This document shows, piece by piece, positions 1 through 63,887 of a stretch of 64,000 nucleotides of DNA. The translations under genes were made by a program, and so were the position numbers. The stretch is from contig JBHGNT010000002.1 in the NCBI GenBank assembly GCA_043228905.1, positions 7,564,001 to 7,628,000 on the forward strand, in the 5' to 3' direction. The notes under the pieces are model-generated. The model had not been told where the DNA came from, made no database searches, and saw only the letters and a list, made by a program, of their open reading frames with translations. The stretch is from Azolla caroliniana (taxonomy: Eukaryota; Plantae; Polypodiophyta). The stretch's first letter is position 1; every line of letters begins with the position of its first letter.

Positions 1-1723
1 TGACTAAGGACATCAAATTTGTTTGCTAGGTTCGGACTGTAAGTACTATTAGGACTATCATGCACACCTAGGGAAATAGACTCGGTTTTAGTACTGTTAA
101 AACTATCATGCGTAGCTAAGGCAATAGACTCAGGTTTAGTACTATTAGTACTAGCAGTAATTTGGTTTACCTGCCTTTTTGGCCTATGGGGACAATTTAT
201 TGCAATGTGTCCTGGTCCACCGCAGTAAAGACATAGTCGATTTGTACGACGTCGCTGCTTTTCCTCTTCGGATAATGGCCCTCGACGACGTGTTGTGTCA
301 ATCTCCATCGGAGTCGGAGTATTCGCTGGAGGTGCAAGGTATGACTCCCTCGGAAAAGGTCTTGATGTCACTGAGGCGTAGGTGGGCTCCGATCTTGCCC
401 TCGGCATCTGTAGTTGTCGTTCCGAACGACGCTCAAATAGACGGTTGTCGCATCTTACCGCGCGACTAATTGCTTCTGTTAAGGACTTCGGCTCTTCGGG
501 GAAGGTCAAGAGTAAATCCTTGACATCGTTGCGTAAACCGTAACGGAATTGCTCCATTAACGCTTGATCATCCCAAGGAATATCGGCGGCGAGTAGGCGA
601 AAATCTGCAGCGTATGCGGAGGCTGGACGATCACCTTGACGTAATCGCCGAATTTTGTTGATTGCGGTTCTGATGCTGTCAGTATCTCCGAAACATGCTT
701 TAAACTCACCGATAAATTCTTCAAAATTATTGAGCAACGGGGATTCCTTTTCTAATAGGGGAGCGAACCACGCCAACGCTGAGCCACTTAATAAAGTTCC
801 TACTAAACCCACTCGTGATGCATCGGTGGGATATCGACAAGGATGCATTTGAATAACTAGTCGTACCTGATTAAGGAACCCTCTAAACTGCGATCGCGTT
901 CCATCAAACTTCGTGGGAAGGCCAATCTTGGGTTCTTTATGAGTTCCTTGTGTTGCGGGCCCGTGTTGTTGCATCGCCACGATGGTTGCTTCGAGTTGTT
1001 GTACGCGTAACGCAAGTTCCCCATGCTGTTGCTGCGTTTGCTGTTTTTCTAAGGAGATTTGTTGAAGATCCCCCAGCAACCGTTGGTTTTCTTGTTCCAA
1101 AGCATGAAATTTCTCCTTCAAACATTGAAACTCCGAAAAAACGGATTGATATTCTTCAGCGCTAACAGTGGCCATGGGATGAAAGAGAAGAGGAATTAAG
1201 AGACTAGTAGGAAAGGGGAGAGATAAGAGGGAGAGGAAGGGCAAATTGGTTCAAACTGTCAGGAATCAGTAGTAAGACGGAGACGGAATTAGTACTAAAC
1301 GAAGGATTAGTACTACAGAGAAGGGATTAGTACTAAACGAAGGATTAGTACTATGAGGGGTGTAGAACTTCTTGAGAGAGAAGGAAGAAGTGAGCGAGAC
1401 AGAGAGACAGAGAGAGAGAGAGAGAGAGAGTAATGATGAGAGAAATATATGTATTACGTGAAGAGAATGTACAACTGTGGCTAGAAGGCTTAAGACTGGC
1501 GTTGAACCAATTTGGTTCAACATAACGCCTAGTGCCCTCTTTTATAGTATTTCTAAGAGTAATCCTGAAGCTTCTAGAATGTTCCAGAGAAATCTGGAAT
1601 ATACATCAATTTCTAAAATAAAACATAAATGAAAATAATATCCTACAACTTATAATGTATAGTCTAATGGTAAGACCTCGACCCATGTAGCATAAGGTCA
1701 TGGGTTCGAGTCTTGCCATGACA
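1..1723 (-). mobile_element. Ty3/Gypsy chromovirus (Tcn1/Tf1-sushi-like), copy A: 5' LTR plus degenerate gag; continues beyond window start
   Basis: Reverse complement is homologous to 45388-47050: gag motifs EPKIGLP-KFDGTRSQFRGFL and a CCHC knuckle. LTR 1257-1723 has TG...CA ends. Confidence 0.9.
1257..1723 (-). repeat. 5' LTR of chromovirus copy A
   Basis: Element sense reads TGTCATGG...TCCTGACA; TATAAAA at 1540-1546 (minus); (GA)n tract; homologous to the LTRs at 45388-45848, 50613-51017 and 14797-15036. Confidence 0.9.
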
Positions 1724-4144: not shown

Positions 4145-4199
4145 TATCGACCACGATATTGTATGGACCTAATGACATGAACACTTTATTCGTAGGATG

Positions 4200-12280: not shown

Positions 12281-12939
12281 ACTCGCTCTTTTTCCATCAA
12301 TGCCACGTGGGTTTGAATGGATTGTAACGCTAGTGCGAGTTCGACATTTGGGGATGTCGAGTGGCAATTTGGTCGGGTGTGGGGGTCATGTCCATACGTG
12401 GTGGTGTCGGGTGTCATTGCGTGTGGGCTTCGTTTGGACTATCGCCCATTGTGCTCGAATGTAGCATGGGGCTGCGCTCACGGCCTCGGAGGTGTGTATG
12501 CGACAATGCTTCTAGTAGGTGAAGTTTTTGTTGCACTCGGGCGAATCTGTCTTTCCTTTCTGCTAAAGCGGCTTCGATATCTCGGTGATTCTTTCCAATT
12601 GTCCTCCTTTCGCGAGTTGTACCGTCCATATATTGATTTCTTGTTCTATCACCTGTAACTCCTTTGCGGCATCCTATATGTGTCTCTCTACGCTGAGCGG
12701 GCCTACCATAGGGCTCTCTTGTAGTGGGGGCATGTTGAGAGGTGCTTTAGTTGCTGGGCTCGATGGGAGATTCATGTTTGGTAGCATCCCCGACGTTAAC
12801 CGCCCCCCGTGGTATTGAGTCGGGTTAGATGGGTTACCACCATGCATTTGGTTGGTTTGGGTGGATTCCTCCTGGCATGTGGTTCGTGTTTTGAACATCA
12901 CGGTCCATGAGGATCCGGCCATGTTCTCTTGTAAAGCTT

Positions 12940-13295
12940 TGCGGGTTCGTCGACAGATGATCTTTCGTCGAACTTTGTGGGTTCATCAAAAGATGTGGGT
13001 TCGTCGAACTTTGATCTTTCGTCGAAGGATGTGGGTTCGTCAAAGGATGTGGGTTGGTCGAACTTTGATCTTTTGTCAAAGGATGTGGGTTCGTTGAAAG
13101 ATGTGGGTTGGTCGAACCTTGATCTTTCGTCGAAGGATGTGGGTTCGTCGAACTTTGATCTTTCGTCGAAGGATGTGGATTGATTGAACTTTGATCTTTC
13201 GTCGAAGGATGTGGGTTCGTCGAAAGATGCGGGTTTGGCGAACTTTGATCTTTTGTTGAAGGATGCTTCCCTTATCGAACTCTGATCTTTCGACA
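12940..13295. repeat. 18/36-bp tandem repeat with TTCGTCGAA core (minus frame reads FDEPTS/FDERSK)
   Basis: Alternating TTCGTCGAAGGATGTGGG and TTCGTCGAACTTTGATCT units. Confidence 0.9.
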
Positions 13296-14796: not shown

Positions 14797-16722
14797 AAAG
14801 CTTAAGACTGGCGTTGAACCGATTTGGTTCGAAATAATGCCTTGTGCCTCCTTTTATAGTGTTTTCAAGAGTACTCTTCTAGAATGTTCTAGAGATATCT
14901 TGAAATATACATCAATTTTCTATAGTGAAATAATAAATGAAAATAGTATTCTTCATATTACAATATATAGTCTAATGGTAAGGGCTCGACCCATGTAATA
15001 TAAGGTCATGGGTTCGAATCTTGTTATATCATGACACTATCCCCCCTTTAAAACGATGAGTGTTATGAGTCGTTCTGGATTGAGGACCCGGTTTGTCTGG
15101 ATATTGACGATGGAACTCTTTAAGAAGAGCATGAGCATTGGTCACATTCTCTATCGGTTCCCAGGTACGCTCGCTAGGGCTATATCTGAGCCAATCGATC
15201 AAATAGTAGAGCTTGTTGCGAATAATCTTGGAATCGAGGATGGCGGCAACCTTGTACTCAGGTCCATCTTCAAGTTCGATCGGAGGTGGAGGCGGTTTGA
15301 TACGACTTGGGATAGTGTTGTCCTGATAGGCTTCTAGAAGAGAACTATAAAAAATACCGGATGTATCCGTAGTTGCGGAGGTAGATCGAGACGAAAAGCG
15401 ACATCATTAATTTTTCCGATAATACGGAAAGGACACAATCGCCGATAATCCAATTTATCACATGGGCGAGTAGTCTTGATGTGTCGGCTAGATGTGTTGT
15501 CGGCTAGATGGAAGCCGATGATGATTCGCATAATCCTTGTATGTTTGTTGAGCTTGTTGTAAATGAGTAGATAAATCCACTTGTATCTTGTGTAACTAGT
15601 CCAAACGATCCTCTGCACAAGGATTTGTGGGTAACTCCAGAGTTTCGAATACACACCACCAGGGATGATAACCCGTATAAGCATAAAATGGTGTAACTTT
15701 AGTCAATGAGTGGACAGAGTTATTATACGCAAATTTGGCGAAGTGGAGAATATCCGCCCAGTCATCTTGGTGATAGCTTAGAAAACATCGAAGATAATGT
15801 TCTAACGTTTGATTTGTTCGTTCTGCTTGTAAGTCTGTTTGCGAGTGGTAGCCAGAGGAGAGGTTACAAGTGACCATGACCATTTTGAAGAGGTGATTCT
15901 AAAATTTCTTGACGAACTAGGGTCCACGGTTGCTGATGATACTATTGGGGAGGCCATGATGCCGACATACCTCATGCATGACAGTTTCAACAGTTTCTTC
16001 ACTAGTGATTTCCTTAGTACATGGAAGGGAATGGGCCATCTTCATCATCGCCTAGTTGTGAAATAATGCTACCCAAGGCGAAATCCGACACATCTGCCTC
16101 AATGATGAAAGGTTTTGTCGGATCAACATGAGCTAGAATAGGAGCTGATGTGAATGCCTTCTTAAGTCTCTCAATAGGCATGTCCGCTTCTTTAGACCAA
16201 ACAAACGACTACCCCTTCTTGTTAAGTTGTGTGAGAGGCAGAATAAGCTTTGAGTAATCCTGTATAAACTTGCGGTAAAATTTGGCAAAGCCTAAAAAGC
16301 ATTGCACATCTCGCAACAAACGTGGAGTCTGCTACTCTATCATAGTTTTGACCTTAGCTGAATCTATAGAGATGCCTTCCGAGGAGATGACATAGCCCAG
16401 AAATTCCACCTGGTTACACTCGAAACTACATTTTTCTAGTTTTGGATAAATACCATGTTCTCGAACCCATTTTAGTACTAACAGTACATGAGAATAATGC
16501 TCTTCTTAGGCCTTCAAATAAACTAGTAGATCATCCAAATAGATGATCAAACAAAAATCCAAGAGATCTTAGAATATATCATTTGCCATGTGTTGGAAGA
16601 CTCCTGGTGCATTAGTGAGACCGAATGGCATGACCGTATACTCGAAGTGCCCATATCTGGTGCGAAACGCGGTCTTCCATTCATCTCCTAGTTGGATCTG
16701 TACGAGGTTATATGCTCCTCGT
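14797..16722 (-). mobile_element. Chromovirus copy B: internally deleted RT/RH/integrase-chromodomain, PPT and partial 3' LTR
   Basis: Homologous to 48000-50850; PPT reverse complement CTATCCCCCCTTT at 15037-15049; LTR part 14797-15036. Confidence 0.88.
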
Positions 16723-16904
16723 AAGTGAAAGCCCTAAATTTTTGGACATGGTATAAATCAATATATTTTGATTCAATTTCCAAAACCCTTTATGCATGCA
16801 ATGGTCCTTTTTGTGAAATTGCCTACTTTGCGCCTTTTTTGGATGGATTGTTCTTAAATTGCGACATATTACCTATTTCAAGTGACCCGGTGTTTTATGT
16901 AGAC

Positions 16905-36000: not shown

Positions 36001-39000
36001 CCATGGGAAAAGGAAACATATAACAGATAAAAACTTCAATGAATGCAGCCACAGCCCTGAAGAAACACAAAGAATTAATGTACAGAAATAACAGAAAAAG
36101 CAACCATCCCTACATATTATTATCATCTCTCAAAGCAAAAAGAGCATGTTGGTGTAAAAACCATGTGGGCTGAACAAAGTGCAAATTACCTGAAGCTTTT
36201 GAACGATATAAAGCATAGGAATTGCAAAAATAAGTATCTCCCATGTGATCACAGCAATCACAATAAGAATTCCGAGTAGTTCAAGAGTTCCAGCCAGTAC
36301 AAAACCAAAGCAGAATGGCATGTCCAAGTCAAGCATGGTCAAATCTGTAGAAAACTAAAGGTAAAACAAAAAGGGAAAAAAATTTCACAGACCCTTCTTC
36401 TCACAATGAATAAATGTTAAAACAATCTATGATACATACTCGGCTAAGGATTCTTCCGGTTGGAGTGGAATCGAAAAATGACATAGGGGCTTTGAAAATC
36501 TTCCGTGTCATATCGTAGAAGAAAGCTTTGGAAGCTTTAAGACCCAACCATACATTAAATGTTGATCTTAGATGAACAAATACAGCACTAGCTACTGAAA
36601 GCAGAGCATATACACCAACTAGCAACCCTTGAGACACCCTTGTATTGCTGACCTCAGCTGCTAGCCAAAAGTTACTTAGAACTTGCAAAATGACAAACAA
36701 GGCCTGCCATATGCTCATAAAAACAAAAACCAGCAATCCTTTAGAAACCGTTATATATTCTTTGTACGGCTTGAGGCCTATATCTCCCTTCTCTGTTTCT
36801 TCATCTTGTACAAGTTGAATAGCTTCACCCAGACGATCAACCCAACTACTTGCTTTTCTACTTAGCTTCCTTTGCATTCGGTTGGATTCAGAGTATATTC
36901 CATCATCCGTGCGAATAGTTTCCCCAAAGCTAACAGTTGTCAACGCTTCCTGGTGAGCATTCACAAGCTGCTCAAATGTTTCGCCGGCATGCAATAGATC
37001 TGCATAACGTCCTGATTGCTGAATTTCCCCTCCTTGCATGACCTATAAGTTTTTTCACAGAATAGAATGTCATGAGTGAATATGTAGGATTATCATATTA
37101 TACAAGTCACCCATCATATAATGTCAACAGGGGTGGTTACTAACTTAGTTTCAAAAAATACAATGTCATGAGTTGATGCATAGAGCTATTGTAATATGTA
37201 AGTCAATAATCATATACGAGTTTGGTGAAATGCAAAGTATCAGGTTTACCAGGATACTATCTACAGCCGGAAGAAACTCCACTTGATGGGTCACAAGAAC
37301 AACCAATTTCTTGGCTAGCATTCCCATTATACAATCCTGCCAAGAAAATCAAAAAGCAAGATAGCTAGCAAAATATTACTATCATGTTGCAAAATATAGG
37401 TATGGATATTGTGATCTTCTCACATTGAATAACACTGCAGCTGTGTGCGCATCGACTGCACTGAAGGGATCATCAAGGAGATAAATGTCTGAATCACTGT
37501 AAACAGCCCTCGCAAGTTGTATCCTCTGTTTCTGTCCTCCACTCATATTGAGACCTCTTTCACCAATCTCTGTGAGATCTCCAAAAGCAAATCCTTTAAT
37601 ATCCTTATCTAATGAGCAAGCCTTAATGGTTTTTTGATAATAAACCTTATCAAACGGCCTTCCAAACAATATATTGTCCCGGACTGTCCCACTCTGTATC
37701 CAGGCAGATTGTGCTACATAGGCTGTAGTACCGACAATTTGCACCTACATATACAATGCTAGTTTCTTTCTGCTATAATAATTAATCCTCATTGATTAAT
37801 TTATCACAAAAAGATTGCTTCATTGCAGATCATTAGAGCTAATAAACTAACTATTATTGTAGGGCATGCTATAAAGATCTATGGATGGATGGTGAAACAT
37901 CAATATTCTGAACTCTCAGAAACTTTCCCACAACAATTATTACATTGCACCTAAGATTAAGAGCCTCTTTCTGTAGGTGAGGTGGAGCATACGTGGCTAA
38001 CAAAAGATAATAGATTAAATTATCGCCATGAGGCCTAGAAAAGTATGTTTATTCTAGTTCTGGCTTAGGCCATGGTGTAAAGGTCTATACCAGATGGACA
38101 GCAAATCTACATCTATTTTTCTAGTAACAGACATACATTAAATGTCATGTACAAATATAAAAGATGGAAATGATTTCGACTAACTACGTAGCATAAACAA
38201 CACCATTATAACTTTGATAAATAAAGACTAACAGTATACAAATTAGGTACTCACAGATCCCCTAAGCTTTGGTATCTCTCCTAGAAGAGCACAAATAAGT
38301 GAAGTTTTCCCCGAGCCCACCGCACCACAGACAGCAATCTTCTCTCCGGCTTTGAAGGTGAGATTGATATTTTTTAGTGTTGGTTTGGGAGACTCTGGGT
38401 TCCACGTGAAGGTACTATCACTGGCTCTGACAGCATATGCTTCTCCGACACTAACAGGAAGGCGTGTAATCGCATCTTTGGGCAGTTCATCGTCTCTAAG
38501 AAACTTCCCTATCCTATTCAGAGAGACAGTAACTTGGATATACGCCGCAAGAACTTCAGGTATCATTCTCACGGGATCTTGGATGATCTTGAAAGTGGCT
38601 AGCACCGTGAAAACAATTGTTGCATTTAGTGGCTGATTCAACCAAATGCAGCTTGCAAATACTACTGATCCAATTGCGATGGGTGATAGCCAATACAATA
38701 TAGTGCCCAACGATCTCCTTGACTGCATCTTTGAAAGCCATTTAAACTCCTCTTCTCGTAGCTCCTCTAAATGCAGCCTAAACCTATCTTCCCAAGCTTG
38801 CAACTTAAGTACTTTGATGTTGTTAAGGAGCTCAGTCGTGGCTCTAAGCCGCTGATCTTGAGCTACCATGTATTCCGACTGGCAATGTTGCAACGATCGA
38901 GCTAAGGGAGTGTTCAAGATGACAGTGCAGATAATGATAGCAAGACCCGGGATGGTAGCCAAACCAACAGTAATGAAGAGGATAATGATAGCCAATGCCA

Positions 39001-39997
39001 TTTGGACAGGCACCGCCCACATGTAATGCATATACCAAGGGAACTCGCCAATGCGATATGCATCTACGGCTACGTAGCTAACAATCTCCCCTGCTGCATG
39101 AGTTTTTCTTCCGATGCTTGAGAGCCGAAGCTCCTTCTCAAACACCGCTGCTAAAATGGCAGATCTCATTTGCATACCCAGCCTCCGGCATCCGAAATAC
39201 CAATGGCGTTGCGCCACGGATTCAACGATCTTGGCCATGAATAGGCCAAGGACCAAGAGGTAGCCGTCTAGCTTAGAGACCCCTTCTTCTTCACTAGGAG
39301 TGGTGGCTAGATTTGATGTATAATCAACAAAGTAGAGAAGAAAGAGTGGACCTGAGGTCATGGCAAGGGTGCGGAGAAGCGCGTAGAGACCCGTCTGCAA
39401 CGCGAGCGGATAGAAGCATTCGGAGAGGACTCGGGCAATCGAAGAAGGGTACGAATGTTTTCCCGGCTTCACAGAAGAGCTCCAAGGCCTGCTTCCATCT
39501 CTGGAGTTCAAATGTCCGTTTACATTTTTGCTGTTTGTGTCACCACCCTCAACAAAGTAGCCATGGTCGCCTGTTGCATCAGAGGGATTCCTGCCATAGA
39601 TCCTAGAGCTTCCATTAACGCTTACTTGTTCATTATTGGCATGGTTGGTTTTCTTGGTCCAAGCATCAGAGAAGGTCCGGAACAGAGTAGAAGCAGAGTC
39701 TTCTGGCGACAAGCGAGGTATATCCTGGAGGAGGAGAGATTTAGAGAATCCGGATTGAAGAATGGGATTGAGCCAGGAGAAGAGGAAGTGAGAGAGATAA
39801 GAGCAGGTATGATATGGTGTGATTGTGGAGGAAGTGGGAGGCAGGGGAAGCTCTGAAGAAGAAGAAGAAGAAGAAGGGAAATCATGATTGTCATGGGCAG
39901 GAAGAAATCTGGGGTCTGAAGATGGAGGAGAAGCAGATGAAGATGAAGGAGGAGGTAGTAAAGGTTGAAACAGGGTCTGCTCTGAGCTCTCCTCCAT
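33092..39997 (-). CDS. ABC transporter C family (MRP/ABCC, ABCC8/ABCC10-like), 11 coding exons, 1384 aa
   Basis: Exons 39997-38255, 37744-37424, 37336-37250, 37042-36440, 36354-36190, 35727-35439, 35233-35019, 34630-34325, 34210-34147, 33681-33442, 33213-33092. All introns GT-AG; total 4155 nt in frame. NBD1: [23 protein letters not shown]2: [22 protein letters not shown]. Start codon is inferred. Confidence 0.95.
34698..34882. mobile_element. Degenerate Mutator-like MITE in ABCC intron 7
   Basis: Imperfect TIRs GGGAAAACGCCAGAATAC / GATTTTGGTGTTTTTCC, similar in style to 42733-43044. Confidence 0.45.
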
Positions 39998-40361
39998 AGC
40001 CAAATAATTGCTGTGTGTAGCCGTCACACAGTAAACATATGGAAAACAGAGGATCCAGTTACATATTTAAAAGGAATTTTTTTTCTGAAGTTTGATTACT
40101 TCTTCTGTTCCTGAATCGGATCGATCTGCGCTCTCTTTCAGAAAATCAAATTAAAAATTGAAATCGAAGGCGGCCAAACTTTTGAGAAATCTCAAAGAAA
40201 ATGCCCAAAAACGCCAAAAAGAAAGCTCTGCAAAGATTGACCGTACTACGATCGTCATATCAATCACAGTCCGTATGCACGGATGGATGCCCAGGAGTAT
40301 GATTGAGTCATTACTTTTTTTCTCTGATTTTGTTATGCATGCATGCATCATGTATAGTATG

Positions 40362-45145: not shown

Positions 45146-45387
45146 TGTTGAGAATCAAGCTCAACATAGCACAACGTGTAAACACACCTTTTGAGAATCT
45201 ATGATTACTCAAAGGTCAAGAGTCACACCACTACTCTCTACACATTATTTATGTGACACATCACTAATGAGTTACATATTCCCCATGATTATGAGTCTTT
45301 ACATTCCCTAAGAGAGAGAGTGGTTGTTGTAAGTTAATGAAGAGAGAGGGTGACTCTATATAAAGCACCCTCCTCATACTTCTTACT

Positions 45388-45700
45388 TGTCATGGTATGG
45401 CAAGACTTGAACCCATGACCTTATGCTACATGGGTCGAGCTCTTGACCATTAGACCATACATTGTAATACGTAAAATATTATTTTCATTTATGTTTTATT
45501 ATAGAAAAATGATGTATATTCTAGATTTCTTTAGAACATTCTAGAAACTTCAAGAATATTCCTCAGAACACTATAAAAGGAGGCACAAGGTATTATTTGG
45601 AACCAAATCGGTTCAACGCCAGTCTTAAGCCTCCTAGCTACTACTGTACATTCTCTTCACATAATATATATATCTTTTCTTATCATCACACACACACACA

Positions 45701-45743
<43 letters not shown>

Positions 45744-48700
45744 TCCCTCTCACTCACTCTTTCCTTCTCTCGAGAGTTCTTCACCTCTCTTAGTACTAAT
45801 ACTTCTTTTAGTACTAATTCCTTCTCTGTCTTAGTAGTGTTCCTAACAGTTTGAACCGATTTTGTCGTTCTTCCTTCTGTATCTTCCTTTCCTCCTCTTC
45901 CTTTTATCTTCTTACTAATCCTCTTATCCTCCCTAGTAAAATGGAAACTGTTAGCGCTCAGGAATACCATTCTGTTTTCTCGGAGCTCCATTGCTTAAAA
46001 GAGAAATTTGTAGCACTAGAACAAGAAAATCATCGTTTGTTGGGGGATCTTCAACAAATAGCGCTGGAAAAACAACAAAAACATGGGGAGCTGACGTTAT
46101 GTGTATAACAACTCGAAGCGACTATCGTATCATTACAACAACAAGGATCAAGCACTCAAGGGATTAAAAAAGAACCCAAGATCGGTCTTCCTGCAAAATT
46201 TGATGGGACCCGATCACAGTTTAGAGGGTTTTTGAATCAGGTACGTTTAGTGATACAAATGCATCCTTCTCGATATCCCACCGATACATCACGAGTGGGA
46301 CTAGTAGGCACTCTCCTTAGTGGCTCAACGTTAGCACGGTTTGCTCCATTGTTGGAAAAGGAATCTCCATTACTAAACAATTTTGAAGAATTTATAAGTG
46401 AGTTTAAGACCTGTTTTGGAGATATTGACAACATAAGGACTGCAATCAACAAAATCCGGCAATTATGCCAAGGTGACGGTAGATAGCCTCCACATACGCT
46501 GTAGATTACCTTTCCTTGGGATGATCACACATTGATGGGGAAATTTCATTATGGTTTATGCAACGATGTCAAGGATTTACTCTTGACCTTCCCCGAAGAG
46601 CCAAAGTCATCAACATAAGCAATCAGTCGCGCGGTGAGATGCAACAACCGCCTCTTTGAACGACGTTTGGAACGACAATTCCAGATTCCGAGGGCAAGAT
46701 TAGAGCCTACCTACGCCTCAGTGGTAGCGAAACCTTTTCCGAGGGAGTCATATAATGTGCCTCCAATAAGTACTCCAACTCCGAAGGAAATTGACACCAC
46801 ACGTCGTTGTGGACCGCTATCAGAGGAAGAAAAGCAACGACACTGAGCAAACTGACTATGTCTTTATTGCGGTGGACCAGGGCATATCGCGGTAAACTGT
46901 ACCCATAGGCCAAGAAGGCAGGTAAACCAAATAGTTGCTAGTTCTGATTGTACTAAACCCGAGTTTATTTCAGTAGGGATATTTGATAGTCCTAATAGTA
47001 CTAATAGCCCAAATCTAGCGAACAAATTTGATGTCCTTAGTCAGTTAGAAGAAGAGTTAAACAATTAAGTCCATCCAAAATAGGAGCCATTTGGTTGGAC
47101 AACCCTAGATTTGTGCAACCCATTAGTGGTTCCATTCCCTCTAACCAAGTTAGCAATGTGTTCGTAGCCCAAGTAATAGTTAGTACTAAAAGTACCCCTC
47201 CAGTACATGTCTTAGCACTTCTAGATTCATGGATAGGAACTTTGCCCAAGCTCATCAAATATCTCTCAAAAACCTCCCGTGTCTAGCCTCTGTAGTAGTC
47301 ATTGATGGTCGTCCCGTTGCTTCCGGAAATATCATAGAAGAGTTAGAGCTCGTTAATATTGTCCTAGATAATCTAGCATGTGTAGTATCATTTAATATAA
47401 TTAGCATCCTAGAACACCCCATTGTTTTAGGATTACCATGGTTCAAATTACATAACCCAGACATAGATGGGAGAACAAGAGAAATCGGTATCGAAAAGCC
47501 CGAGGATCTACTCATGAGATTGCAACCATTTCGCTACATCAGTTGCGGGAAGAAGGACGCAAGGAAGAAATGTTTCTCTTCGCAATATCAGTAAAGCCTT
47601 CAGACACCATTAAAGAGGAGTTCACCGTTCAACTTCCAAAGAAGTATCATCATTATGCCGATGTGTTCGATAAAGTACAAGCCAATACGCTTCCTCACCA
47701 TCGACCGTATGATTGCCCCATCGATTTACAACTGGGGAAAGAGCCACCATGGGGACTGATCTACAATTTGTCACCAACCGAGCTAGAAGTCCTGCGAGCC
47801 TATATAGAGGAGAATTTGGAAAATGGTTTCATTCGACATTCGAAATCTCCAGCCGGTGCACCCATTTTCTTCGTCAAGAAAAAGGATGGATCACTTCGCC
47901 TCATTGTAGATTACCATGGCTTGAATAAGGTGACAATCAGAAATAGGTATGCACTTCCCCTTATCTCAAGCCTTTTAGAATGGATCAATGGTGCCAAGTT
48001 CTTCACGAAGATCGACTTACGGGGAGCCTATAACCTCGTACGGATCTGACCAGGGGATGAATGGAAGACCGCGTTTCGCACCAGAGATGGGCACTTCGAG
48101 TATACAATCATGTTGTTTGGCCTCACTAATGCGCCAACAGTCCTCCAGCACATGGCAAATGATATATTCCGAGATCTCTTGGATGTTTGTTTGATCATCT
48201 ATTTGGATGATCTACTGGTTTATTGGAAGACCCAAGAAGAGCATGATTTTCATGTACTGTTAGTACTAAAACGACTTCGAGAACATGGTCTTTATGCAAA
48301 GCTGGAAGAATGTAGTTTTGGGTGCAACTAGGTGGAATTTCTGGGCTATGTCATTTCCTCGGAAGGCATCTCCATGGACCCAGCTAAGGTCAAAACTATG
48401 GTAGAGTGGCAGACTCCGCGTTCGGTGCGAGATGTGTAATGCTTTTTAGGCTTTGCCAATTTTTATCGGAAGTTCATACAAGCTCGTTTTGCCTCTCACA
48501 CAGCTTACCAAGAAGGGACAATCGTTCGTTTGGTCTAAAGAAGCGGACATTGCTTTCAAAAGTCTTAAAAAGGCATTTACATCGGCTCCAATTCTAGCTC
48601 ATGTCAATCCAGAAAAACCATTCATTATTGAAGCAGACACATCGGATTTTGCATTGGGGAGCATTCTGTCACAACGGGGTAATGATGAGAAGCTACATCT

Positions 48701-51017
48701 TGTGGCTTTCCACTCACGCAAGTTTGATGCCGCCGAAATCAACTACAAAATTCATGATAAGGAGCTATTGGCAACATTGGACTCTTTTACGCAATGGAGG
48801 CATTTTCTAGAGGGATCCTCTCATCAAATCACCGTATTTAGTGACCACAAAAACCTTGCATACTTTCAGGATGCTCGTGTGTTAAATTGACATCAAGCTC
48901 GGTGGGCCCACTTCCTCACACATTTCGACTTCAAAATTACATATCATCCGGGGAAGCACCAAGGGAAGGCGGATGCATTATCGCGGCATTCGTACCTAGC
49001 ATCGCGTCCCGGCGAGCCAGCTTTTGATAACCAAAAGCAAGTAATCTTGGGACCGACACGACTACAAGCAACACAGGTCTTTGGCATGCCAATGGATTCC
49101 CACATTATCGATACTATACGTGAGGATTTGAAAACCGATGTTTTCGCCCAAGCCATTCTAGCACAAATTGATCCCTCTCGAACATCTTGTTCACAGTCGC
49201 AACCACCAGGTAGGGACTATCGGCAATTCAAATACCATGATGGATTACTATTCTTTAATGAACTCTTGTATGTTCCTAATGGTTCTTGCCGCCTTCGAGT
49301 AGTCCAAAACTGTCATGACACATATACAACTGGGCATTTTGGTAGTACTAAAACATTAGATTTAGTACAATGATCATTTTGGTGGCCCCGTATGCGACAA
49401 TTTGTCTAAGATTTTGTTCGGACTTGTGATACATGCTGCAGAGTGAAAATGCCAAGGCATCATCCATATGGTTTATTAGAACCATTACCAAATCCAAGCA
49501 AGCCATGGCAATCCATTGCTCAAGACTTCATCACAGATCTTCCAGTCTCTAAGGGGTTCAATGTGATTCTAACAATCGTAGATCGATATACGAAGAGGGC
49601 TCATTTCTTGCTATGTACTAAGGAAATATCCAGTGAAGAAACCGCTGAAATTGTCATGTGTGAAGTATGTCGGCATCATGGCCTTCCCGATAGTATCATC
49701 AGCAACCGTGGACCCCAGTTCGTCTTGAAATTCTGGACGCACCTTTTTAAAATGCTCAAGGTCACATGTAACCTCTCCTCCTACTACCACCCACAAACGG
49801 ATGGCCAAGCAGAACGAACAAATCAAACACTGGAGTAGTATCTTCGGTGCTTTCTAAGCTATCATCAGGATGACTGGGTAGATATTCTCCACTTTGCCGA
49901 ATTTGCCTACAATAACTCTGTCCATGCATCAACTAAAGTTATGGCATTTTATGCTTATACGGGTTCTCACCCCTGGTGGTGTGTATTTGAAACCCCAGAG
50001 TTGTCCACAAATCCTTGCGCAGAGGATCGTTTAGAGCGGTTACGCAAGATACAAGCCGATTTATCTACTCATCTCAAACAAGCTCAACAAACACACAAGG
50101 TTTATGCAGATCGTCATCGACTTCCATCCAGTCTTAACATTGGAGATCAGGTATGGCTACTATGACGACACATCAAGACTACTCGCCCATGCGAAAGTTG
50201 GATTATCGGCGATTAGGTCCTTTCCATATTATAGGAAAGATTAATGATGTCGCTTTTTGTCTCGATCTACCTCCGCAACTTCGGATACATCCGGTGTTTC
50301 ATAGTTCTCTCCTCCAACCCTATCAAGAGAACACCATCCCAGGACGTATTATACAGCCTCCACCCCCGATCGAGCTTGAAGATGGACCTGAGTACGAGGT
50401 TGTCGCCATCCTTGATTCCAAGATTGTTCGCAACAAGCTCTACTATCTAGTCGATTGGCTAGGATATAGTCCAAGTGAGTGTACTTGGGAACTGATAGAG
50501 AATGTGACCAATGCTCGTGCTCTTCTTGAAGACTTCCATCGTCAATATCCAGACAAATTGGGTCCTCAATCCAAAACGACTCGTGACACTCGTCGTTTTA
50601 AAGGGGGGATAGTGTCATGATATGGCAAGACTCAAACCCATGACCTTATACTACATTGACCATTAGACCATACATTGTAATACGTAGAATATTATTTTCA
50701 TTTATGTTTTATTATAGAAAATTGATCAGATTTCTCTAGAACATTCTAGAAACTTCAGGAGTATTCCTCAGAACACTATAAAAGGAGGCACAAGGTGTTA
50801 TTTGGAACCAAATCGGTTCAACGCCAATCTTAAGCCTCCTAGCTACTACTGTACATTCTCTTCACATAATATATATATCTTTTCTTATCATCACTCTCTC
50901 TCTCTCTCTCAGTCCCTCTCACTCACTCTTTCCTTCTCTCGAGCGTTCTTCACCTCTCTTAGTACTAATACTTCTTTTAGTACTAATTCCTTCTCTGTCT
51001 TAGTAGTGTTCCTGACA
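45388..51017 (+). mobile_element. Full-length chromovirus copy C (Tcn1/Tf1-sushi-like), LTRs 45388-45848 and 50613-51017
   Basis: TSD TTACT/ATACT; gag-PR-RT (YLDD)-RH-INT-chromodomain, with many stops; PPT AAGGGGGGATAG at 50601-50612. Confidence 0.95.
50385..50560 (+). other. Group I chromodomain at the integrase C-terminus
   Basis: EYEVVAILDSK...YLVDWLGYSPSECTWE retains the Y/W/Y aromatic-cage residues. Confidence 0.88.
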
Positions 51018-51386
51018 ATACTAAGTCGGTTGTGACTCCTTGTAATGCTACAATTTTGTATATCCATTCTACTTGTGAAATATATATCTTCTTCTTCTTG
51101 AGTATTCCTTTTTCTATCTATCTTGTGTTCTCTCATCTCTCCTCTAATTCCTCTCACACATACACATAACACACATCTCTTCCGCTACACAAGAATCATA
51201 CTCGATTCTTTACATGGTATCAGAGTGATTTGGTAGCTCGATCTAGCCCACTCGCCTCATTGTGATCGTGTGTTGTGCTCTACGCCGACGTTCAAGAAGA
51301 ACCGGCTCATCGCTATCGTAGTGCGACTACATAGCTCGTGTTCGAGAGAGAAGGAAAAGAAAAGAAGGAAGAAATCTACATCGACA

Positions 51387-54300
51387 ATGAATACTCAAAT
51401 GGGGAGCGCTCTCCCTAGCGAGAAGTTGGATCGCAACAACTTTGCATCTTGGGAGTACAAGATGCACCAATACCTTGTCGGCCAAGGCTATTGGAGCTAC
51501 ATCAAAGGAGTATAAGAAAATCGGCCCAACCCGGAAGACGCTGACTATGCAACGTGGGAGCAAGCGGCAATCCGAGTGATGTATTGCTTGGCGACATGTG
51601 TTCAGGACCACATGCTCGGGTACATTTGAGAAGCCAAGACGCCGAAGGAAGCGTGGGAGAATCTACGAAAGATTTTCGCCGCCAACACGACCGCGAGAAA
51701 GCTTCAACTCCGCCAAGAGTTGAATAATATCCAACAAAGGGATATGTCCGTCACAAGCTACACTTTGAAGATCAAGGAGCTTTGCAACTCGCTCGGCTCG
51801 ATAAGCATAAACGTGGAGGATGACAAGATGGTGCAAATATGCCTCGGCGGCCTTGCACCACGGTTCAGCGCAATGCAGACCGCCATACTAGCACGGGAGA
51901 ATCCGCCCTCCTTCTTCGACCTTCAATTCATGTTGTTGGTCAAAGAGAATCATGTTCGAACAAGGAACAACGGCTTGGAAGGCCAAGTGCTCTACACGCA
52001 TTCGGACGGAGGAAGAGGATGCGATCGTGCAAGAAGAGGCCGATTCGGCCAAGGACGTGGCAGACGAGGCGGACAAGGCCCGATTTACGAAAACAACTCG
52101 CAATTTCGGCATCAAGACGGAAGCCATCGAGGAACCTTCGGAAGAAGGGGGAGCTTCCATTCCGGTCCGAACCGACAAAGCTCGGTCGAATGCGGATATT
52201 GCGGAAAAATAGGTCACCACGAAGAAGAATGCCGTGAGAAGATATGCAAGTCGGCTTACACTAGCCGACAACTCACCAACTACGCCATCAACTCCGACTA
52301 TGACGATCGCGGCGGAATGTTCGTGATGAGACATAGAGCGAATTCTATGTCGGCCTCTACTTCTACTAGTGCCTCCGGTCCACAAGACGTATGGTTCGTC
52401 GATTCCGGTGCCTCGAAACATATGACGTCGAATCAAGAATGGTTCTGAGAACTTCGAGAGCCGGACCACCCGGTTATGTCGAAACCGGAGATGACACTAC
52501 ACACCCGATTCGGCACATCGGCAATGTTCCGTTCGGAGAAGAAGGTAAGCAAACGTATATTAAAAATGTCTTGCATGTACCAACTATCACGAAGAATTTG
52601 GTCTCCATCGGCCAAATTATAGAGCAAGGAATGCAAGTATGATGTAATCAAGGCGGTTGCTTCATCGAAAAAGAGGGCCGACTCATTGCTCACGGACGGA
52701 GAGAGGGCCGAATGTTCATTCTTGACTCACACGAGATGAAATCGGCCATGTTCGCAAAAGGCACGAAAGTCGAGTCCGACATAGAGTTATGGCACAAGCG
52801 GATTGGCCATATCAACCTTCAAAAGCTCAAGGCAATGCAATCGAAAGGAGTCGTCATCGAGCTCCCGACATTCACGGAGAAAGAGATTGAAGGCGTGTGT
52901 GCCACTTGCCAATTCGGCAAGCAACATTGGCACCCATTTCCGAAGGAGCGGAACGTGAGCAAAGGCGTACTCGACGTAATTCATGCCGATGTATGGGGTC
53001 CGGCTCAGATGACGACATTCAGCGGATGCCGGTACTACGTGACCTTCATCAACGACTTCTCTAGGCACACTTGGATCTACCCGATGCGGCAAAAGAGCGA
53101 AGTGTTCGGACACTTCCAAAAATTCAAGAATGAAGTCGAGAAAGCCACTGGCCGACATGTACGATGTCTTCGGTCGGATGGAGGCAAGGAATATTTCTCG
53201 GATGAGTGTATGACGTTTCTACGGAAAGAAGGAATATGGCGAGAGTTTTTGTGTCGACATACGCCACAACAAAACGGAGTGGCCGAATGCAAGAATCGGC
53301 ACATCCTTGAAGGGGCCTGGGCTATGCTTAACGAAAAGCACATGCCGAAATTGTACTGGGCAAAAGCAGCTAACACGGCCATATACGTCATGAATCGGTG
53401 TACGACATCCGGCGTGCATGAGCTCACGCCGCACGAAAGGTTTTTCGGAAAGAAGTCGGATCTATCACACGTCCGGATATTCAGCTCCATTGCGTATGTG
53501 CACATCCCTGACGAAAAGCGACAAAAGCTCGACCCGAAACCGGAGAAATGTATCCTCATCGGATACTTACTGGAGCAAAAGGGGTACAAGTGCTATAACC
53601 CCTCGACTCGAAAAGTTCGCGTAAGTCGTGATGTTGTTTTCGACGAGTCCGCATCTTGGTACACACTAGAGACAACTTCAACTCCGATTCCGCTCGACCT
53701 GGAATCCCCCGAGCAAGAGATAGAGGATGAAGATTGCTTTACGTGCATGTTCACAGAAAGTCCGATCACGACCCGACTGAGCGGACCACAAGAGCCTTTG
53801 AACGATCAAAGCACATCTCGACCAAGTTCGAAGTTGGACAAAGGGAAGGCCAAAATGCTGGAGTTTGAAGACGCTCATTTCGATGGCAACAAATCGACTC
53901 ACTCCCTCGATAGTGAGTTCGAAGGCCTTGACATCTGGACAAATGGAGTGAAGAAAGCCTTAGAATCCGCAAACAAGAAGCTACGCCGATCCACTCGTGA
54001 AAAGAACCCTGTAAGCCGCTTCGGCTACGATGAGTATATGGCATACCATTACGCCTTTAAGATGAAGGTCGCACAAGTACGAGAGCCGGAAACCTTTTCC
54101 GAAGCTGTGAAGGACCCGCGATGGATCGAAGCAATGAATGAGGAGATGCGTGCACTACGCAAGAACGACACATGGGATATCGTTGCCCACTCACCGCATA
54201 GGAAGGCGATCAGATGTAGATGGATCTACAAGGTGAAGTATAATGCCGATGGCTCCGTCAACCGCTACAAAGCTCGACTCGTAGCGAAAGGATATGCACA

Positions 54301-55746
54301 AACACATGGCGTCAACTACGAAGAGACCTTTGCCTCGGTGGCAAAGATGACGACAGTGTGGACCGTGATCGCACTTGCAGCAACAAAAGGGTGGCACCTC
54401 CACCAAATGGACGTCAAGAACGCCTTTCTTCAAGGTGAATTAGACGAGGAGGTGTACATGGTACAACCACCCGACTTCGAATCGCGCATTCATCCAAAAG
54501 CTGTATTCCAACTCAAGAAGCCTCCCTACGGCCTTAAGCAAGCACCGTGTGCTTGGCATTCGAAGATTACGCAATATCTTCATCAAATCGGCTTTCGAAT
54601 GTCGAAATCCGACAACTCCCTCTACGTACGACACAACTCTAGAAGCTTAATTGTTATCATCCTATACGTGGATGATCTGGTCATTGGAGGTGGAAGTCTA
54701 GTCGACATCAACAAGGTCAAGTCCCTCCTCTCCGGAAAATTCAAGATGACGGACATGAAGGAGCTCCATTACTTCCTTGGCATCGAAGTAATTTGGATTC
54801 CGACCGGCATTATGATCTCTCAATGGCACTACATTCTCAACTTATTATACAAGTTCCGGATGACTGAGTACAAATCGGTCGCTACACCTCTCGATCGAAA
54901 CCTCAAACTAGATGCTGACTCCGGCACAGACGAGTGCGAGCCGACCCAATATCGTCAACTGATCAGGAGCCTCATCTATCTCACAATCACTTGACCCGAC
55001 CTTAGCTATCCAGTCGGACTCCTCAGCCAATTCATGCAAAAACCACGCACATTCACTTGGATTGCGCTAAGCGAGTATTACAATACGTGAGCGACACAAT
55101 GGATTATGGCGTTCTCTACGCATCGGCCACACCAATACGACTCGAAGGGTACACAGACGCAGACTGGGTAGGCTACAAAGCTGATCGACAATCGACCTCC
55201 GGATTTGTCTTCTCGCTCGGTAGCGGAGCAATATCTTGGAGTAGTAAGAAGCAACCTACTGTCGCACTTTCGAGTATGGAGGCCGAATACAGGGGCGCAA
55301 CCGTAGTTGCATGTGAAGCCGTATGGCTCAAGAGGATTTTGAAGGATCTGGGCGTTCCCATCAAGGATTTGACTCCCATTTACTACGACAATATGAGTAG
55401 TATATATCTGGCTTGGAACCTGGTGTTCCACGCATGCACAAAGCACATCGAAGTGCACTATCACTTCATTCAAGAGCCCGTACAAGCCGGAGATGTCGAC
55501 CTTCAACACATTAACACGAATCTTCAGACGGCCGACATCTTCACCAAAGCTTTAGGAGCCGACAAGCTTCGGAAATTCATGTCAGACCTTGGATTGACGA
55601 TCCCTGACTTGCCAGACTTGAGGGGGAGTACAAGCGAGAACCGGATACTGTCCGAACTGCGTACGAGCCGAAGCGGGCACCGGAGATCGTCTGAACCGGA
55701 TACCAACCGAAGTGGACATCAATCGAAAGGAACTAACCTGAGTTGA
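51387..55746 (+). pseudogene. Copia gag-pol with a few stops and frameshifts (longest ORF 52712-54994)
   Basis: WHKRIGH, RSDGGKEY, PQQNGVAE, KARLVAKGY, QMDVKNAFL, YVDDL, DADW motifs. Confidence 0.93.
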
Positions 55747-56404
55747 GCTTGAGGGGGCGTGTTGAGAATCAAGCTCAACATAGCACAACGTGTGAACACA
55801 CATTTTGAGAATCTATGATTACTCAAAGGTCAAGAGTCACACCACTACTCTCTACACATTAACTATGTGTCATAGAATCATATTCTATGACACATAACTA
55901 ATGAGTTACATATTCCCCATGATTATGAGTCTTCACATTCCCCAAGAGAGAGAGTGGTTGTTGTAAGTTAATGAAGAGAGAGGGTGACTCTATATAAAGC
56001 ACCCTCCTCATACTGCATACTAAGTCGGTTGTGGCTCCTTGTAATGCTACAATTTTGTATATCCATTCTACTTGTGAAATATACTTCTTCTTCTTCTTCT
56101 TGTGAAATATATCTATCTTGTGTTCTCTCATCTCTCCTCTAATTCCTCTCACACATACACATAACACACATCTCTTCCGCTACACAAGAATCATACCCGA
56201 TTCTTTACAAGTAATGACCACCATGATGCTTGAATCTTTGTTTTCCCGTGCACCAATCCTTCATGCTCAATAAAATATTGCTTCATAGATATCCATGGTT
56301 GATCTTGTTGACATATATCTCGTAATAATGCAAATCTACGAGCCATCAAATGCATTTCCGCATACAATATTGTTGCACCACCTAACCTTTTGGGAGTAGC
56401 CAAA

Positions 56405-60071: not shown

Positions 60072-63000
60072 AGTATGCCGACATACTTCACGCATGACAA
60101 TTTCAACGGTTTCTTCACTGGATATTTCCTTAGTACATGGTAGGAAATGAGCCATCTTCGTATATCGATCTACTACTATTAAAATCGCATTGAATCCCTT
60201 AGAGACTGGAAGATCTGTGATGAAATCTAGAGCAATGGATTGCCACGGCTTGCTTGGAATTGGTAATGGTTCTAATAAACCATATGGATGATGCCTTGGC
60301 ATTTTTGCTCTGCAATATGTATCACAAGTCCAACCAAAATCTTCGACAAATTGTCACATACAGGGCCACCAGAATGATCGTTGTACTAAATCTAATGTTT
60401 TAGTACTACCAAAATGCCCAACTATATATGTGTCATGACAGTTTTGGACTACTTGACGGTGGCAAGAACCATTAGGAACATACAAGAGTTTCTTAAAGAA
60501 TAGTAATCCATCATGACATTCGAATTGTCACTAGTCCGTACCTGGTTGTTGCGATTGTGAACAAGATGCTCGAGAAGGATCAATTTGTGCTAGAATGACT
60601 TGGGCGAAAGCATCTGTGTTCAAGTCCTCATGTATGGTATCGATAACGTCAGAATCCAAGGGCGTGCCGAAGACCTGTGTTGCTTGCAGTCGTGCTGGTC
60701 CCAAGATTACTTGCTTTTGGTTATCGAAAGCTGGCTCGCCGGGACGCGGTGCTAGATACGAATGTCGTGATAATGCATCTGCCTTCCCTTGGTGCTTCCC
60801 CGGACGATATGTAATTTTGAATTTGAAATGCGTGAGGAATTGGGCCCACCGAGTTTGACGTCGATTTAACACACGAGCACTTTGAAAGTAGGCAAGGTTT
60901 TTGTGATCACTGAATACGGTGACTTGATGAGAGGATCCCTCTAGAAAATGCATCCATTGCGTAAACGAGTCCACTATTGCTAATAGCTCCTTATCATGAA
61001 TTTCATAGTTGATTTTGGCGGCGTCAAACTTGCGTGAGTGGAAAGCCACAGGATGTAGCTTTTCATCATTACCTTGTTGTGAAAGAATGCTACCCAATGT
61101 GAAATCCGACGCGTTCGCTTCCATGATAAATGGTTTTTCCGGATCAACGTGAGCTAGAATAGGAGACAATGTAAATTCCTTCTTAAGATTCTCAAAAGCC
61201 ATGTCCGCTTCTTCAAACCAAACAAATGATTGTCCCTTCTTAGTAAGTTGTGTGAGAGGCAGAACAAGCCTAAAAAGCATTGCACATCTCGCAACGAACG
61301 CGGAGTTTGCCACTCTAACACCGTTCTGACCTTAGCTGGATCCATGGAGATGCCTTCCGAGGAGATGACATAGCCTAGAAATATTACCTGGTTGCACCCA
61401 AAACTACATTTTTCCAGCTTTGCATAAAGACCATGTTCTCGAAGTCATTTTAGTACTAATAGTACATGAGAATCATGCTATTCTTGGGTTTTCGAATAAA
61501 CTAGTAGATCATCCAAATAGATGATCAAACAAATATCCAAGAGATCTCGGAAGATATCATTTGCCATGTGGTGGAAGACTCATGGTGCATTAGTGAGGCC
61601 AAACAGCATGATCGTATACTCGAAGTGCCTATATCAGGTGCAAAACACAATCTTCCATTCATCTCCTGGTCGGATCCGTACGAGGTTATATGCTCCCCGT
61701 AAGTCGATCTTCGTGAAGAACCTTGCACCATTGATCCGTTCTACAAGACTTGAGATAAGGGGAAGTGCATACCTATTTCTGATGGTGACCTTAGTCAAGC
61801 CATGATAATCTACAATGAGATGAAGTGATCCATCCTTTTTCTTGACAAAGAAAATGGGTGCGCCGGCTAGAGATTTCGAATGCCGAATGAAACCATTTTC
61901 CAAATTCTCCTCTATATAGGCTTGAAGGACTTCTAGCTTGGTTGGTGACAAATTGTAGATCGGTCCCCATGGTGGCTCTTTTCCCGGTTGTAAACTGATG
62001 GGGCAATCATACGGTTGATGGTGAGGAAGCGTATTGGCTTGTACGTTATCGAACACATCGCCATAATGATGATACTTCTTTGGAAGTTGAATGGTGGACT
62101 CCTCTTTAGTGGTGTCGGAGGGTTTTACTGATATTGTGAAGAGAAACATTTCTTCCTTGCGTCCTTTTTCCCGCAATTGATGTAGCGAAATGATTGCAAT
62201 CTTATGAGTAGATCCTCAGGCTTGTCGATACTGGATTTCTCTTGTTCTCCAATCTATGTATGGGTTATTCGAACCATGGTAATCCTAAAATAATGGGATG
62301 TTCTAGATGATACTACACACGCTAGATTATCTAGGACAATATTAACGAGCACTGACTCTTCTATGCTATTTCCGGAAGCAATGGGACGACCATCAATGAC
62401 TACTATAGAGGCTGGACACGAGAGGTTTTTGGGAGATATTTGATGAGCTTGGGCAAACTTCCTATCCATGAAGCAAGAATTAGCTCCGGAATCTAGAAGT
62501 GCTAAGACATGTACTAGAGGGGTACTTTTAGTATTAACTCTTACTTGGGCTACAAACACATTGCCAACTTGCTTAGAGGGAATGGAACCACTAATAGGTT
62601 GCACAGATCTAGGGCTGTCCAACCAAACGGCTCCTATTTTGGCCGGACTTAGTGGTTTAACTCTTCTCCTAACTGACTAAGGACATCAAATTTGTTCGCT
62701 AGATTTGGGCTATTAGTACTATTAGGACTATGGGATATTCCTACTGAAATAGACTTGGGTTTAGTACAATTAGAACTAGCAACTATTTGGTTTACCTGTC
62801 TTCTTAGCCTATGGGGACAATTTACTACAATATGCCTGGGTCCACCGCAATAAAGACATAGTCTATTTGCTCGACGTCATTGCTTTTCTTCTTCCGATAA
62901 TGGTCTGCAACGACATGTAGTGTCAATCTCCATCGGAGTCGGAGTATTCGGTGGAGACGCATTATATGACTCCCTCGGAAAAGGTTTCGCTACCACTGAG

Positions 63001-63887
63001 GCGTAGGTGGGGTCGGATCTTGCCCTCGGCATCTAGAATTGTCATTTTGAACGTCGTTCGAAAAGGCGGTTGTCGCATCTCACCGCGCGACTGATTGCTT
63101 CTATTAATGACTTTGGTTCTTCGGGGAAGGTCAAGAGTAAATCCTTGACATCGTTGCGTAAACCATAACGAAATTGCTCCATCAATGCTTGATCATCCCA
63201 AGGGATATCGGTGGCAAGTAGGCGGAAATCTACATCGTATGTGGAGGCTGAACGATCACCTTGGCGTAATCGTCGGATTTTGTTGATTGCTATCCTTATG
63301 TTATCAGTATCTCCAAAATAGGCTTTAAACTCACTTATAAATTCTTCAAAATTATTTCGTAATGGAGATTCCTTCAATAACAACATAGAAAACCATGCCA
63401 ATGCTGAGCCACTACGTAGAGTGCCTACTAGTCCCACTCGTGATGCATCAGTAGGATATTGAGAAGGATGCATTTGAATCACTAAACGTACCTAGCACAG
63501 AAAACCTCTAAAATGTGATCGGGTCGCATCAAATTTTGCAGGAAGACCGATCTTGGGTTCTTTGTGAATCCTTTGAGTGCTTGATCCTTGTTGTTATAGT
63601 GATACAATAGTCACTTCAAGTTGTTGTACACGTAACGTCAGCTCACCGTGTTGTTGTTTTTCCAACGCTATTTGTTGAAGATCCCCCAACAAACGGTGAT
63701 TTTCTTGTTCTAGTGCTACAAATTTCTCTTTTAAGCATTGGAGCTCCGAGAAAACATATTGGTATTCCTGAGCACTAATAGTTTCCATTTTACTAGGGAG
63801 GATAAGAGGATTAGTATGAAGGAAAAAAGGGGTAAGAAGATAAGGGAAACCGGAAAGAAGACCGGGAAAAAGGGGATATGTAAGAAG
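60072..63887 (-). mobile_element. Chromovirus copy D: gag-PR-RT-RH-partial integrase
   Basis: Homologous to copy C; LLDSGANSCF protease site intact; integrase truncated at ~60072. Confidence 0.92.

What the first reader, a model, noticed from the sequence alone, without database searches (positions are those of the whole stretch)
45572..45862. Self-priming (tRNA-independent) PBS in a plant chromovirus, with matched changes between copies
Seen: there is no TGG/tRNA PBS after the 5' LTR. Instead TTGAACCGATTT (45851-45862) is the exact complement of AAATCGGTTCAA (45605-45616), which lies 33 nt downstream of the TATA box (45572), at the expected transcript start. In copy A both sites differ in a matched way: PBS TTGAACCAATTT (rc 1243-1254) and start AAATTGGTTCAA (rc 1502-1513), again 33 nt from TATA. 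Known: S. pombe Tf1 primes from the first 11 nt of its own mRNA. Inference: this family self-primes. Caveat: the covarying base pair is a CpG, so two independent deaminations could mimic covariation.
Basis: partly seen in the sequence, partly recalled or inferred. Interest (0 to 1): 0.8.

Follow-up and report, generated by a model that had tools for sequence, protein, structure and literature searches.

The report
Self-priming chromovirus family in a fern
A fern jumping gene carries a 12-letter site that pairs with the predicted start of its own RNA, and related families keep the pairing with different letters, so it likely starts copying itself without a host tRNA, a trick shown in yeast Tf1 and already predicted in print for related moss elements.

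Summary
Observation confirmed. The element (45388-51017) is a decayed Ty3/gypsy chromovirus on the fungal/vertebrate Tf1/sushi side of the RT tree, in a fern (inferred from one neighbouring gene). Its PBS starts 2 nt after the LTR and complements a 12-mer 33 nt after TATA. The CpG caveat is resolved: the A:T pair is inherited (24 of 24 copies of that LTR type), and two further families keep the pairing with non-CpG changes (22/28 and 21/27 perfect). No tRNA 3' end matches, in a partial tRNA set. Self-priming is already predicted for plant Tcn1 (83% of 1500 elements, Neumann 2019), and this scan noted it before in moss genomes. Added here: a fern host; 53 genomic fold-back copies joined exactly at the 12-mer/PBS duplex, two flanked by their own 5-bp TSD; and antisense tracts ending at R nt 11-19 (11 of 43) and never at nt 1-10, as a Tf1-like cut after nt 12 would predict. 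U3 also holds antisense tRNA-type A/B boxes. The transcript start is unmapped and the three-duplex 'pretzel' is not supported. New member of a known kind.

The parts
45388..45848 (+). 5' LTR (TG...CA); element nested in a Copia LTR; TSD TTACT/ATACT (4 of 5)
   Evidence: 17 differences in 405 columns against the 3' LTR
45404..45457 (-). Antisense tRNA-type Pol III A box (45447-45457) and B box (45404-45413) at the start of U3; not a tRNA gene
   Evidence: no ARAGORN or Rfam tRNA hit
45572..45579 (+). TATA box
   Evidence: 32-33 nt before the primer sequence in all four sequence types
45600..45604 (+). U3 arm GAACC that can pair with the 12-mer where U3 precedes R (3' end of the RNA)
   Evidence: 5 bp here (chance level), 7 bp in type A, 9 bp in family I, absent in family H
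45605..45616 (+). Predicted first 12 nt of the transcript = predicted self-primer
45849..45850 (+). 2-nt spacer (GT) between LTR end and PBS
45851..45862 (+). Primer-binding site complementary to the 12-mer
45941..47065 (+). gag, decayed (6 stops)
47041..50599 (+). pol PR-RT-RH-IN-SH3-chromodomain, decayed (stops and frameshifts); chromodomain keeps the Y-W-Y cage residues
50600..50612 (+). Polypurine tract
50613..51017 (+). 3' LTR; its 12-mer copy at 50810-50821
1243..1723 (-). Copy A: 5' LTR (1257-1723), 12-mer AAATTGGTTCAA (1502-1513), PBS TTGAACCAATTT (1243-1254); member of a young subfamily
14800..16726 (-). Truncated third copy: 3' end of pol and part of a 3' LTR with the 12-mer at 14814-14825
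60075..63830 (-). Fourth copy, internal region only; 5' LTR and PBS missing

Best explanation
This is a Tf1/sushi-side chromovirus whose PBS is complementary to a 12-mer in its own LTR, and it likely primes reverse transcription from that 12-mer instead of a tRNA. Transcription is predicted to start at the C|A 32-33 nt after TATA; the first 12 nt (11 in family I) would fold onto the PBS 2 nt beyond U5; RNase H would cut after nt 12, as in Tf1, and RT would extend the freed 3' end through the spacer and U5, running off at nt 13. Shown: complementarity, fixed spacing, compensatory change across families, fold-back copies joined at the duplex, and their end points. Inferred: start site, cleavage, priming.
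For: Pairing kept in four sequence types of this genome: G 14/27 perfect (24/27 with at most one mismatch), A-query set 24/29 perfect (25 after re-anchoring one row), H 22/28, I 21/27; mean Watson-Crick pairs of 11: 10.2-10.8 within types, 5.9-7.7 between G/A, H and I. T:A version in 24/24 A-type LTRs; sporadic CpG decay in G-type is unmatched (3 C:A, 2 T:G). Primer always starts at A after C and pairing stops there in most copies. Nine metagenome relatives show four more primer/PBS sequences at the same geometry (10 of 46 loci positive, one probably chance; shifted controls 0-3). RT-RH groups with fungal and vertebrate elements, apart from Tanacetum and Closterium, SH-aLRT 100. 53 genomic fold-back junctions U3-12mer-antisense U5, control 0; two are 656/679-bp units with a perfect 5-bp TSD. 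Antisense tracts: 11 of 43 independent ends at R nt 11-19, 0 at nt 1-10; in the 33 sites fetched after the prediction was noted, 6 of 25 and 0 (P about 6e-4 against uniform). Predicted helix probability above 0.5 in 97 of 111 leaders.
Against: No transcript start was measured (searches gave contigs only). The two flanking duplexes of the Tf1 'pretzel' were not supported: duplex 2 beat shuffles in 11 of 14 family I copies but 0 of 14 in each other set; duplex 3 in none. In the window copy itself the MFE fold lacks the helix (probability 0.37). The end-point pile-up could come from RT pausing at the U3/R hairpin; only 4 of the 11 ends lie at nt 11-13, and two other junctions begin at nt 10. The fold-back copies prove a DNA-level duplex, not RNA priming. 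The tRNA set tested is partial (103 sequences, 17 isotype labels).
Confidence: 0.9

Rival explanations
1. The PBS is primed by an internal tRNA fragment (its core complements the T-loop motif GGTTCRA), and the LTR match is secondary.
For: An 11-nt match to the T-arm of one variant tRNA-Gln(TTG) copy, and 9 nt to tRNA-Asn. The tRNA set is incomplete.
Against: The other 8 tRNA-Gln copies match only 8 nt; the A-type PBS reaches 9 nt at best; none lies at a CCA end. PBS changes in four types track the LTR 12-mer. Fragment primers described in plants are half-tRNAs of Copia lineages (PMC6317226, passages). H and I PBS were not run against tRNAs.
Confidence: 0.04
2. The duplex is a structural or packaging/translation hairpin of the leader, or primes in trans from a second RNA or from the 3' R copy, without a Tf1-type cut at nt 12/13.
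For: No measured start site or cut; pretzel duplexes weak; tract ends spread over nt 11-32.
Against: The PBS sits exactly where a primer must end (2 nt from the LTR CA) in every family; no tract ends in nt 1-10; no other primer site exists.
Confidence: 0.05
3. Chance complement plus independent CpG decay.
For: The G/A change is at a CpG.
Against: 0 of 2000 shuffles reach 11 nt; inherited in 24/24 copies; three non-CpG compensations in H and a different 11-mer in I.
Confidence: 0.01

Closest known systems
Plant Tcn1 clade (REXdb chromovirus|Tcn1; Neumann et al. 2019, PMC6317226, passages and supplement rows seen)
   Same: Chromovirus with aromatic-cage chromodomain, 5-bp TSD, overlapping gag and pol, no tRNA PBS, LTR-complementary PBS 0-5 nt from the LTR; grouped with fungal/vertebrate elements; self-priming predicted for 83% of 1500 elements.
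   Different: Reported only from moss and club-moss; a PCR survey of 26 ferns and horsetails found none (PMC2864245, section 7). Here the host is a fern and the family has thousands of candidate sites. No labelled Tcn1 sequence was in my tree, so a separate Tf1/sushi entry into ferns is not excluded.
Tf1/Tf2 of Schizosaccharomyces pombe and the Tf1/sushi group (PMC7175516, PMC4600332, bioRxiv 2022.12.06.519325; passages seen)
   Same: 5' 11-12 nt complementary to the PBS, TATA-proximal start, chromodomain integrase; PBS copied into the cDNA 3' end (PMC11042837, passages), which would explain the fold-back copies.
   Different: Primer 12 nt in three types (Tf1: 11); separate gag and pol frames; the two flanking pretzel duplexes are weak or absent by my energy test; U3 carries a PBS-like arm in some families and antisense A/B boxes.
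Helenus TRIMs with tRNA-derived LTR sequence (Kojima 2024, PMC10886601; abstract and passages seen)
   Same: A and B boxes kept inside an LTR without a functional tRNA fold.
   Different: Helenus is non-autonomous and tRNA-primed; here the boxes are antisense, at the U3 edge of an autonomous, TATA-driven element. That paper notes that 'not a few' LTRs hold tRNA-like parts.

Membership tests
Chromovirus (Ty3/gypsy) | PR-RT-RH-IN order with C-terminal chromodomain | tested here: met
Tf1/sushi group | RT-RH groups with fungal/vertebrate rather than seed-plant chromoviruses | tested here: met
   (SH-aLRT 100, quick tree, midpoint root); nearest named proteins Absidia 65%, Cunninghamella 64%, vertebrates 54-56%, Tanacetum 45-51%
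Tf1/sushi group | PBS complementary (10 nt or more) to an LTR segment, starting 0-5 nt after the LTR, no tRNA 3'-end match | tested here: met
   (partial tRNA set)
Tf1/sushi group | Self-primer is the transcript's 5' end | not testable with these tools
   only contigs were served; position TATA+32/33 at C|A fits
Tf1/sushi group | RNase H cut right after the primer | tested here: inconclusive
   fold-back tract ends pile at nt 11-19, none at 1-10; hairpin pausing not excluded; two junctions at nt 10
Tf1/sushi group | Three-duplex 'pretzel' around the primer-PBS helix | tested here: inconclusive
   duplex 2 significant only in family I, duplex 3 in none; short stacked helices may escape this test; the original Tf1 papers were not held
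Tcn1 clade | Group I chromodomain with Y-W-Y aromatic cage | tested here: met
   (YEV...VDW.GY in copy A and the window copy); not exclusive to Tcn1 (PMC3350952)
Tcn1 clade | Clusters with C. neoformans Tcn1, PpatensLTR2 and SM-Tcn1 | not testable with these tools
   no labelled Tcn1, Galadriel or Mordred sequence came
Tcn1 clade | 5-bp TSD and overlapping gag/pol | tested here: met

The most novel reading that the evidence does not exclude
The fern genome holds a fossil record of the priming reaction itself: fold-back copies and mis-transfers map the Tf1-type cut to nt 12/13 without any experiment, fold-back of plus-strand strong-stop DNA yields integrase-competent U3-to-U3 mini-elements, a U3 copy of the PBS masks the 3' copy of the primer so that only the 5' end can prime, and an antisense tRNA-type promoter at the LTR edge insulates the element in heterochromatin; the lineage entered ferns from fungi separately from moss Tcn1.
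Probability: 0.25. Interest if true: 0.68.

Novelty: new member of a known kind. Interest (0 to 1): 0.42.

Why it matters
In the passages I read, self-priming in plant elements is a prediction from complementarity. This family adds compensatory change across four sequence types and dozens of mis-copied genomic relics that report on the duplex and its likely cut site, a read-out that could be run in any genome. It also places abundant, recently mobile Tf1/sushi-type elements in a fern, where an earlier PCR survey found none, which bears on how often these elements crossed from fungi to land plants.

Tried and rejected
No RNA holder listed; laying four runs gave contigs only, no start site. One contig of run X3 (RNA is a guess) showed the fold-back joint; since the genome holds such joints it is no evidence of RNA. 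Rfam and ARAGORN found no tRNA in the LTR. The listing of cluster members gave no organism names; the Atlas gave only generic Gypsy clusters. First RT tree misplaced family I through a degenerate copy (L237); redone with three better copies. The gag DNA tree has several long rows from nested insertions; it shows T:A in at least two gag clades, but LTR exchange between subfamilies is likely, so I count the G/A change as one event and do not use the Fisher P. One search's filter dropped most family I rows and was replaced, where row L050 was mis-anchored (corrected). Fold-back pattern for family I: 0 hits; family H: 2 hits, one reading through, one ending near nt 25, too few to separate cutting from hairpin pausing. 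Junction patterns: nt 13 gave 4 hits (1 mutated normal LTR, 2 independent junctions), nt 3 gave 0, nt 10 gave 2: not decisive. Three primary Tf1 papers were not held; Neumann's per-element table was not among the supplement hits, so PBS sequences of moss Tcn1 were not compared.

Full report
Observation. The two 12-mers, the TATA box and the matched change in copy A are exactly as stated. The element spans 45388-51017, with TG...CA LTRs differing at 17 of 405 columns, a polypurine tract at 50600-50612 and a 4-of-5 TSD, nested in a Copia LTR. The PBS starts 2 nt after the LTR's CA and has no TGG. None of 2000 shuffled LTRs gave more than 10 complementary nt, against 12 observed.

Identity. Domains are Gag, PR, RT, RH, IN, Tf2-like SH3 and a chromodomain with the Y-W-Y cage. 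The window copy is decayed; copy A belongs to a young subfamily (11 near-identical hits, LTRs 99.6% alike). In two quick RT-RH trees the families group with fungal and vertebrate elements, apart from Tanacetum and Closterium (support 100). No labelled Tcn1 sequence was available, so 'Tcn1' is inferred and 'Tf1/sushi side' is tested. The neighbouring ABCC exon hits Adiantum and Ceratopteris best, agreeing with an earlier AI note that the host is a fern; this rests on one gene.

Covariation. Using anchors outside the 12-mers, I scored 111 of 120 fetched copies. Four primer/PBS types appear: G (AAATCGGTTCAA), A (AAATTGGTTCAA), H (AATTCGAATCAA, three non-CpG changes) and I (AAGGAGATCAA, 11 nt). 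Perfect pairs: 14/27, 24/29 (25 after correcting one mis-anchored row), 22/28, 21/27; at most one mismatch in 24/27, 28/29, 28/28, 27/27. Pairing between G/A, H and I falls to 5.9-7.7 of 11. All 24 A-type LTRs carry T:A, whereas decay in G-type copies is unmatched (3 C:A, 2 T:G), so copy A's change is inherited. Copies are related, so these are about three independent events, not 111. The primer always begins at an A, nearly always after C, 32-33 nt from TATA. Among 46 metagenome loci with room upstream, 10 show the same geometry with other sequences (one probably chance; shifted controls 0-3).

tRNA rival. Against 103 tRNA sequences of 17 isotype labels from this genome (a partial set), no 3' end matches; the best internal match is 11 nt in the T-arm of one variant tRNA-Gln copy, 9 nt for type A. 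H and I were not run against tRNAs.

Fossils of the duplex. A contig joint suggested a junction U3-12mer-antisense U5. The genome has 53 such sites, control 0. Eight read through the 12-mer into U3, seven to the LTR start; two of these are 656- and 679-bp units with perfect 5-bp TSDs, two continue into the PPT complement, the others gave no TSD or were not resolved. They fit plus-strand strong-stop DNA folding back by its PBS end; Tf1 cDNA is known to carry a single-stranded PBS copy (PMC11042837, passages). The other 45 tracts end inside R-U5; after merging one triplicated event, 11 of 43 end at nt 11-19 and none at nt 1-10. In the 33 sites fetched after I noted the prediction, 6 of 25 and 0 (P about 6e-4). 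One copy (L333/L378) shows nt 13 joined to the same internal site on both strands. This is what a template cut after nt 12 predicts. Against it: ends are blurred by microhomology and only 4 lie at nt 11-13, the U3/R hairpin could stall RT at the same place, two other junctions start at nt 10, and the hairpin-free family H gave only 2 sites.

Structure. The primer-PBS helix has probability above 0.5 in 97 of 111 predicted leaders, though only 0.37 in the window copy. The flanking duplexes of the Tf1 'pretzel' (bioRxiv 2022.12.06.519325, passages) beat shuffles only for duplex 2 in family I. A PBS-like arm in U3 pairs with the primer in types A and I and in L148 but not H; it would mask the 3' copy of the primer (inference).

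Side feature. U3 begins with antisense A and B boxes scoring like tRNA genes in G/A, H and L141 but not I, without a tRNA fold. tRNA-like LTR parts are known (Helenus, PMC10886601); function here is untested.

What is known. Tf1 primes from its first 11 nt after an RNase H cut (PMC7175516, passages). Neumann et al. predicted self-priming for 83% of 1500 plant Tcn1 elements, from moss and club-moss only; Novikova et al. found no Tcn1 in 26 ferns and horsetails by PCR. Searches for Tcn1 or self-priming in ferns (listings only; 30 of 43 papers listed, none holding 'Tcn1') and for such inverted products (0 papers) found no description, within an open-access library. The scan noted self-priming moss elements before.

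Verdict. The reading is right and now well supported (0.9), but the mechanism is a known kind. The additions are the fern host, the multi-family compensation and the fold-back relics. New member of a known kind; interest 0.42.

Noticed in passing
window 45404-45457 (-); L031, L230, L282, L141: Antisense tRNA-type A and B boxes at the U3 edge score like real tRNA genes (mean 22.7 and 24.0 bits in the G/A sets, 18.7 in H, tRNA genes 24.4, shuffles 3-5; above own shuffles in 24/24, 25/27, 25/25) but not in family I (7.5; 4/23). Possible TFIIIC insulator or captured SINE head.
   Followed up: partly
L331 (G000:C4:19608636-19611668), L356 (G000:C4:1459400-1462100): 656- and 679-bp units U3-R-U5-PBS-inverted U3 with perfect 5-bp TSDs: fold-back products apparently inserted by integrase.
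   Followed up: yes
window 45600-45614; L251; L148:1954-1996: A PBS-like arm between TATA and the primer forms a U3/R hairpin (7 bp type A, 9 bp family I and L148, 5 bp type G, none in H); it would mask the 3' copy of the primer.
   Followed up: partly
L043-L060: Copies with near-identical leader and gag carry either LTR type, and the PBS letter follows the LTR's 12-mer; fits LTR exchange with the PBS copied from the primer.
   Followed up: partly
window 45301-45387 and 51018-56195: Host Copia element with a TGGTATCAGAG PBS at 51215-51225 and an RVT_2 ORF at 52643-54994, into whose 5' LTR the chromovirus inserted.
   Followed up: no
window 38243-40066 (-): ABCC-type transporter exon; best named hits Adiantum and Ceratopteris.
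   Followed up: partly
L067-L113: Large clusters of tRNA-Lys(TTT), Arg(TCT), Ile(TAT) and Thr(TGT) copies, many degenerate, and repeated organelle-like tRNA blocks on small contigs.
   Followed up: no
window 4174-5032 and 12892-13265: Tandem arrays with 37-nt and 18-nt units.
   Followed up: no
L226: A copy with identical LTRs inserted in a tandem array of about 178-nt units.
   Followed up: no
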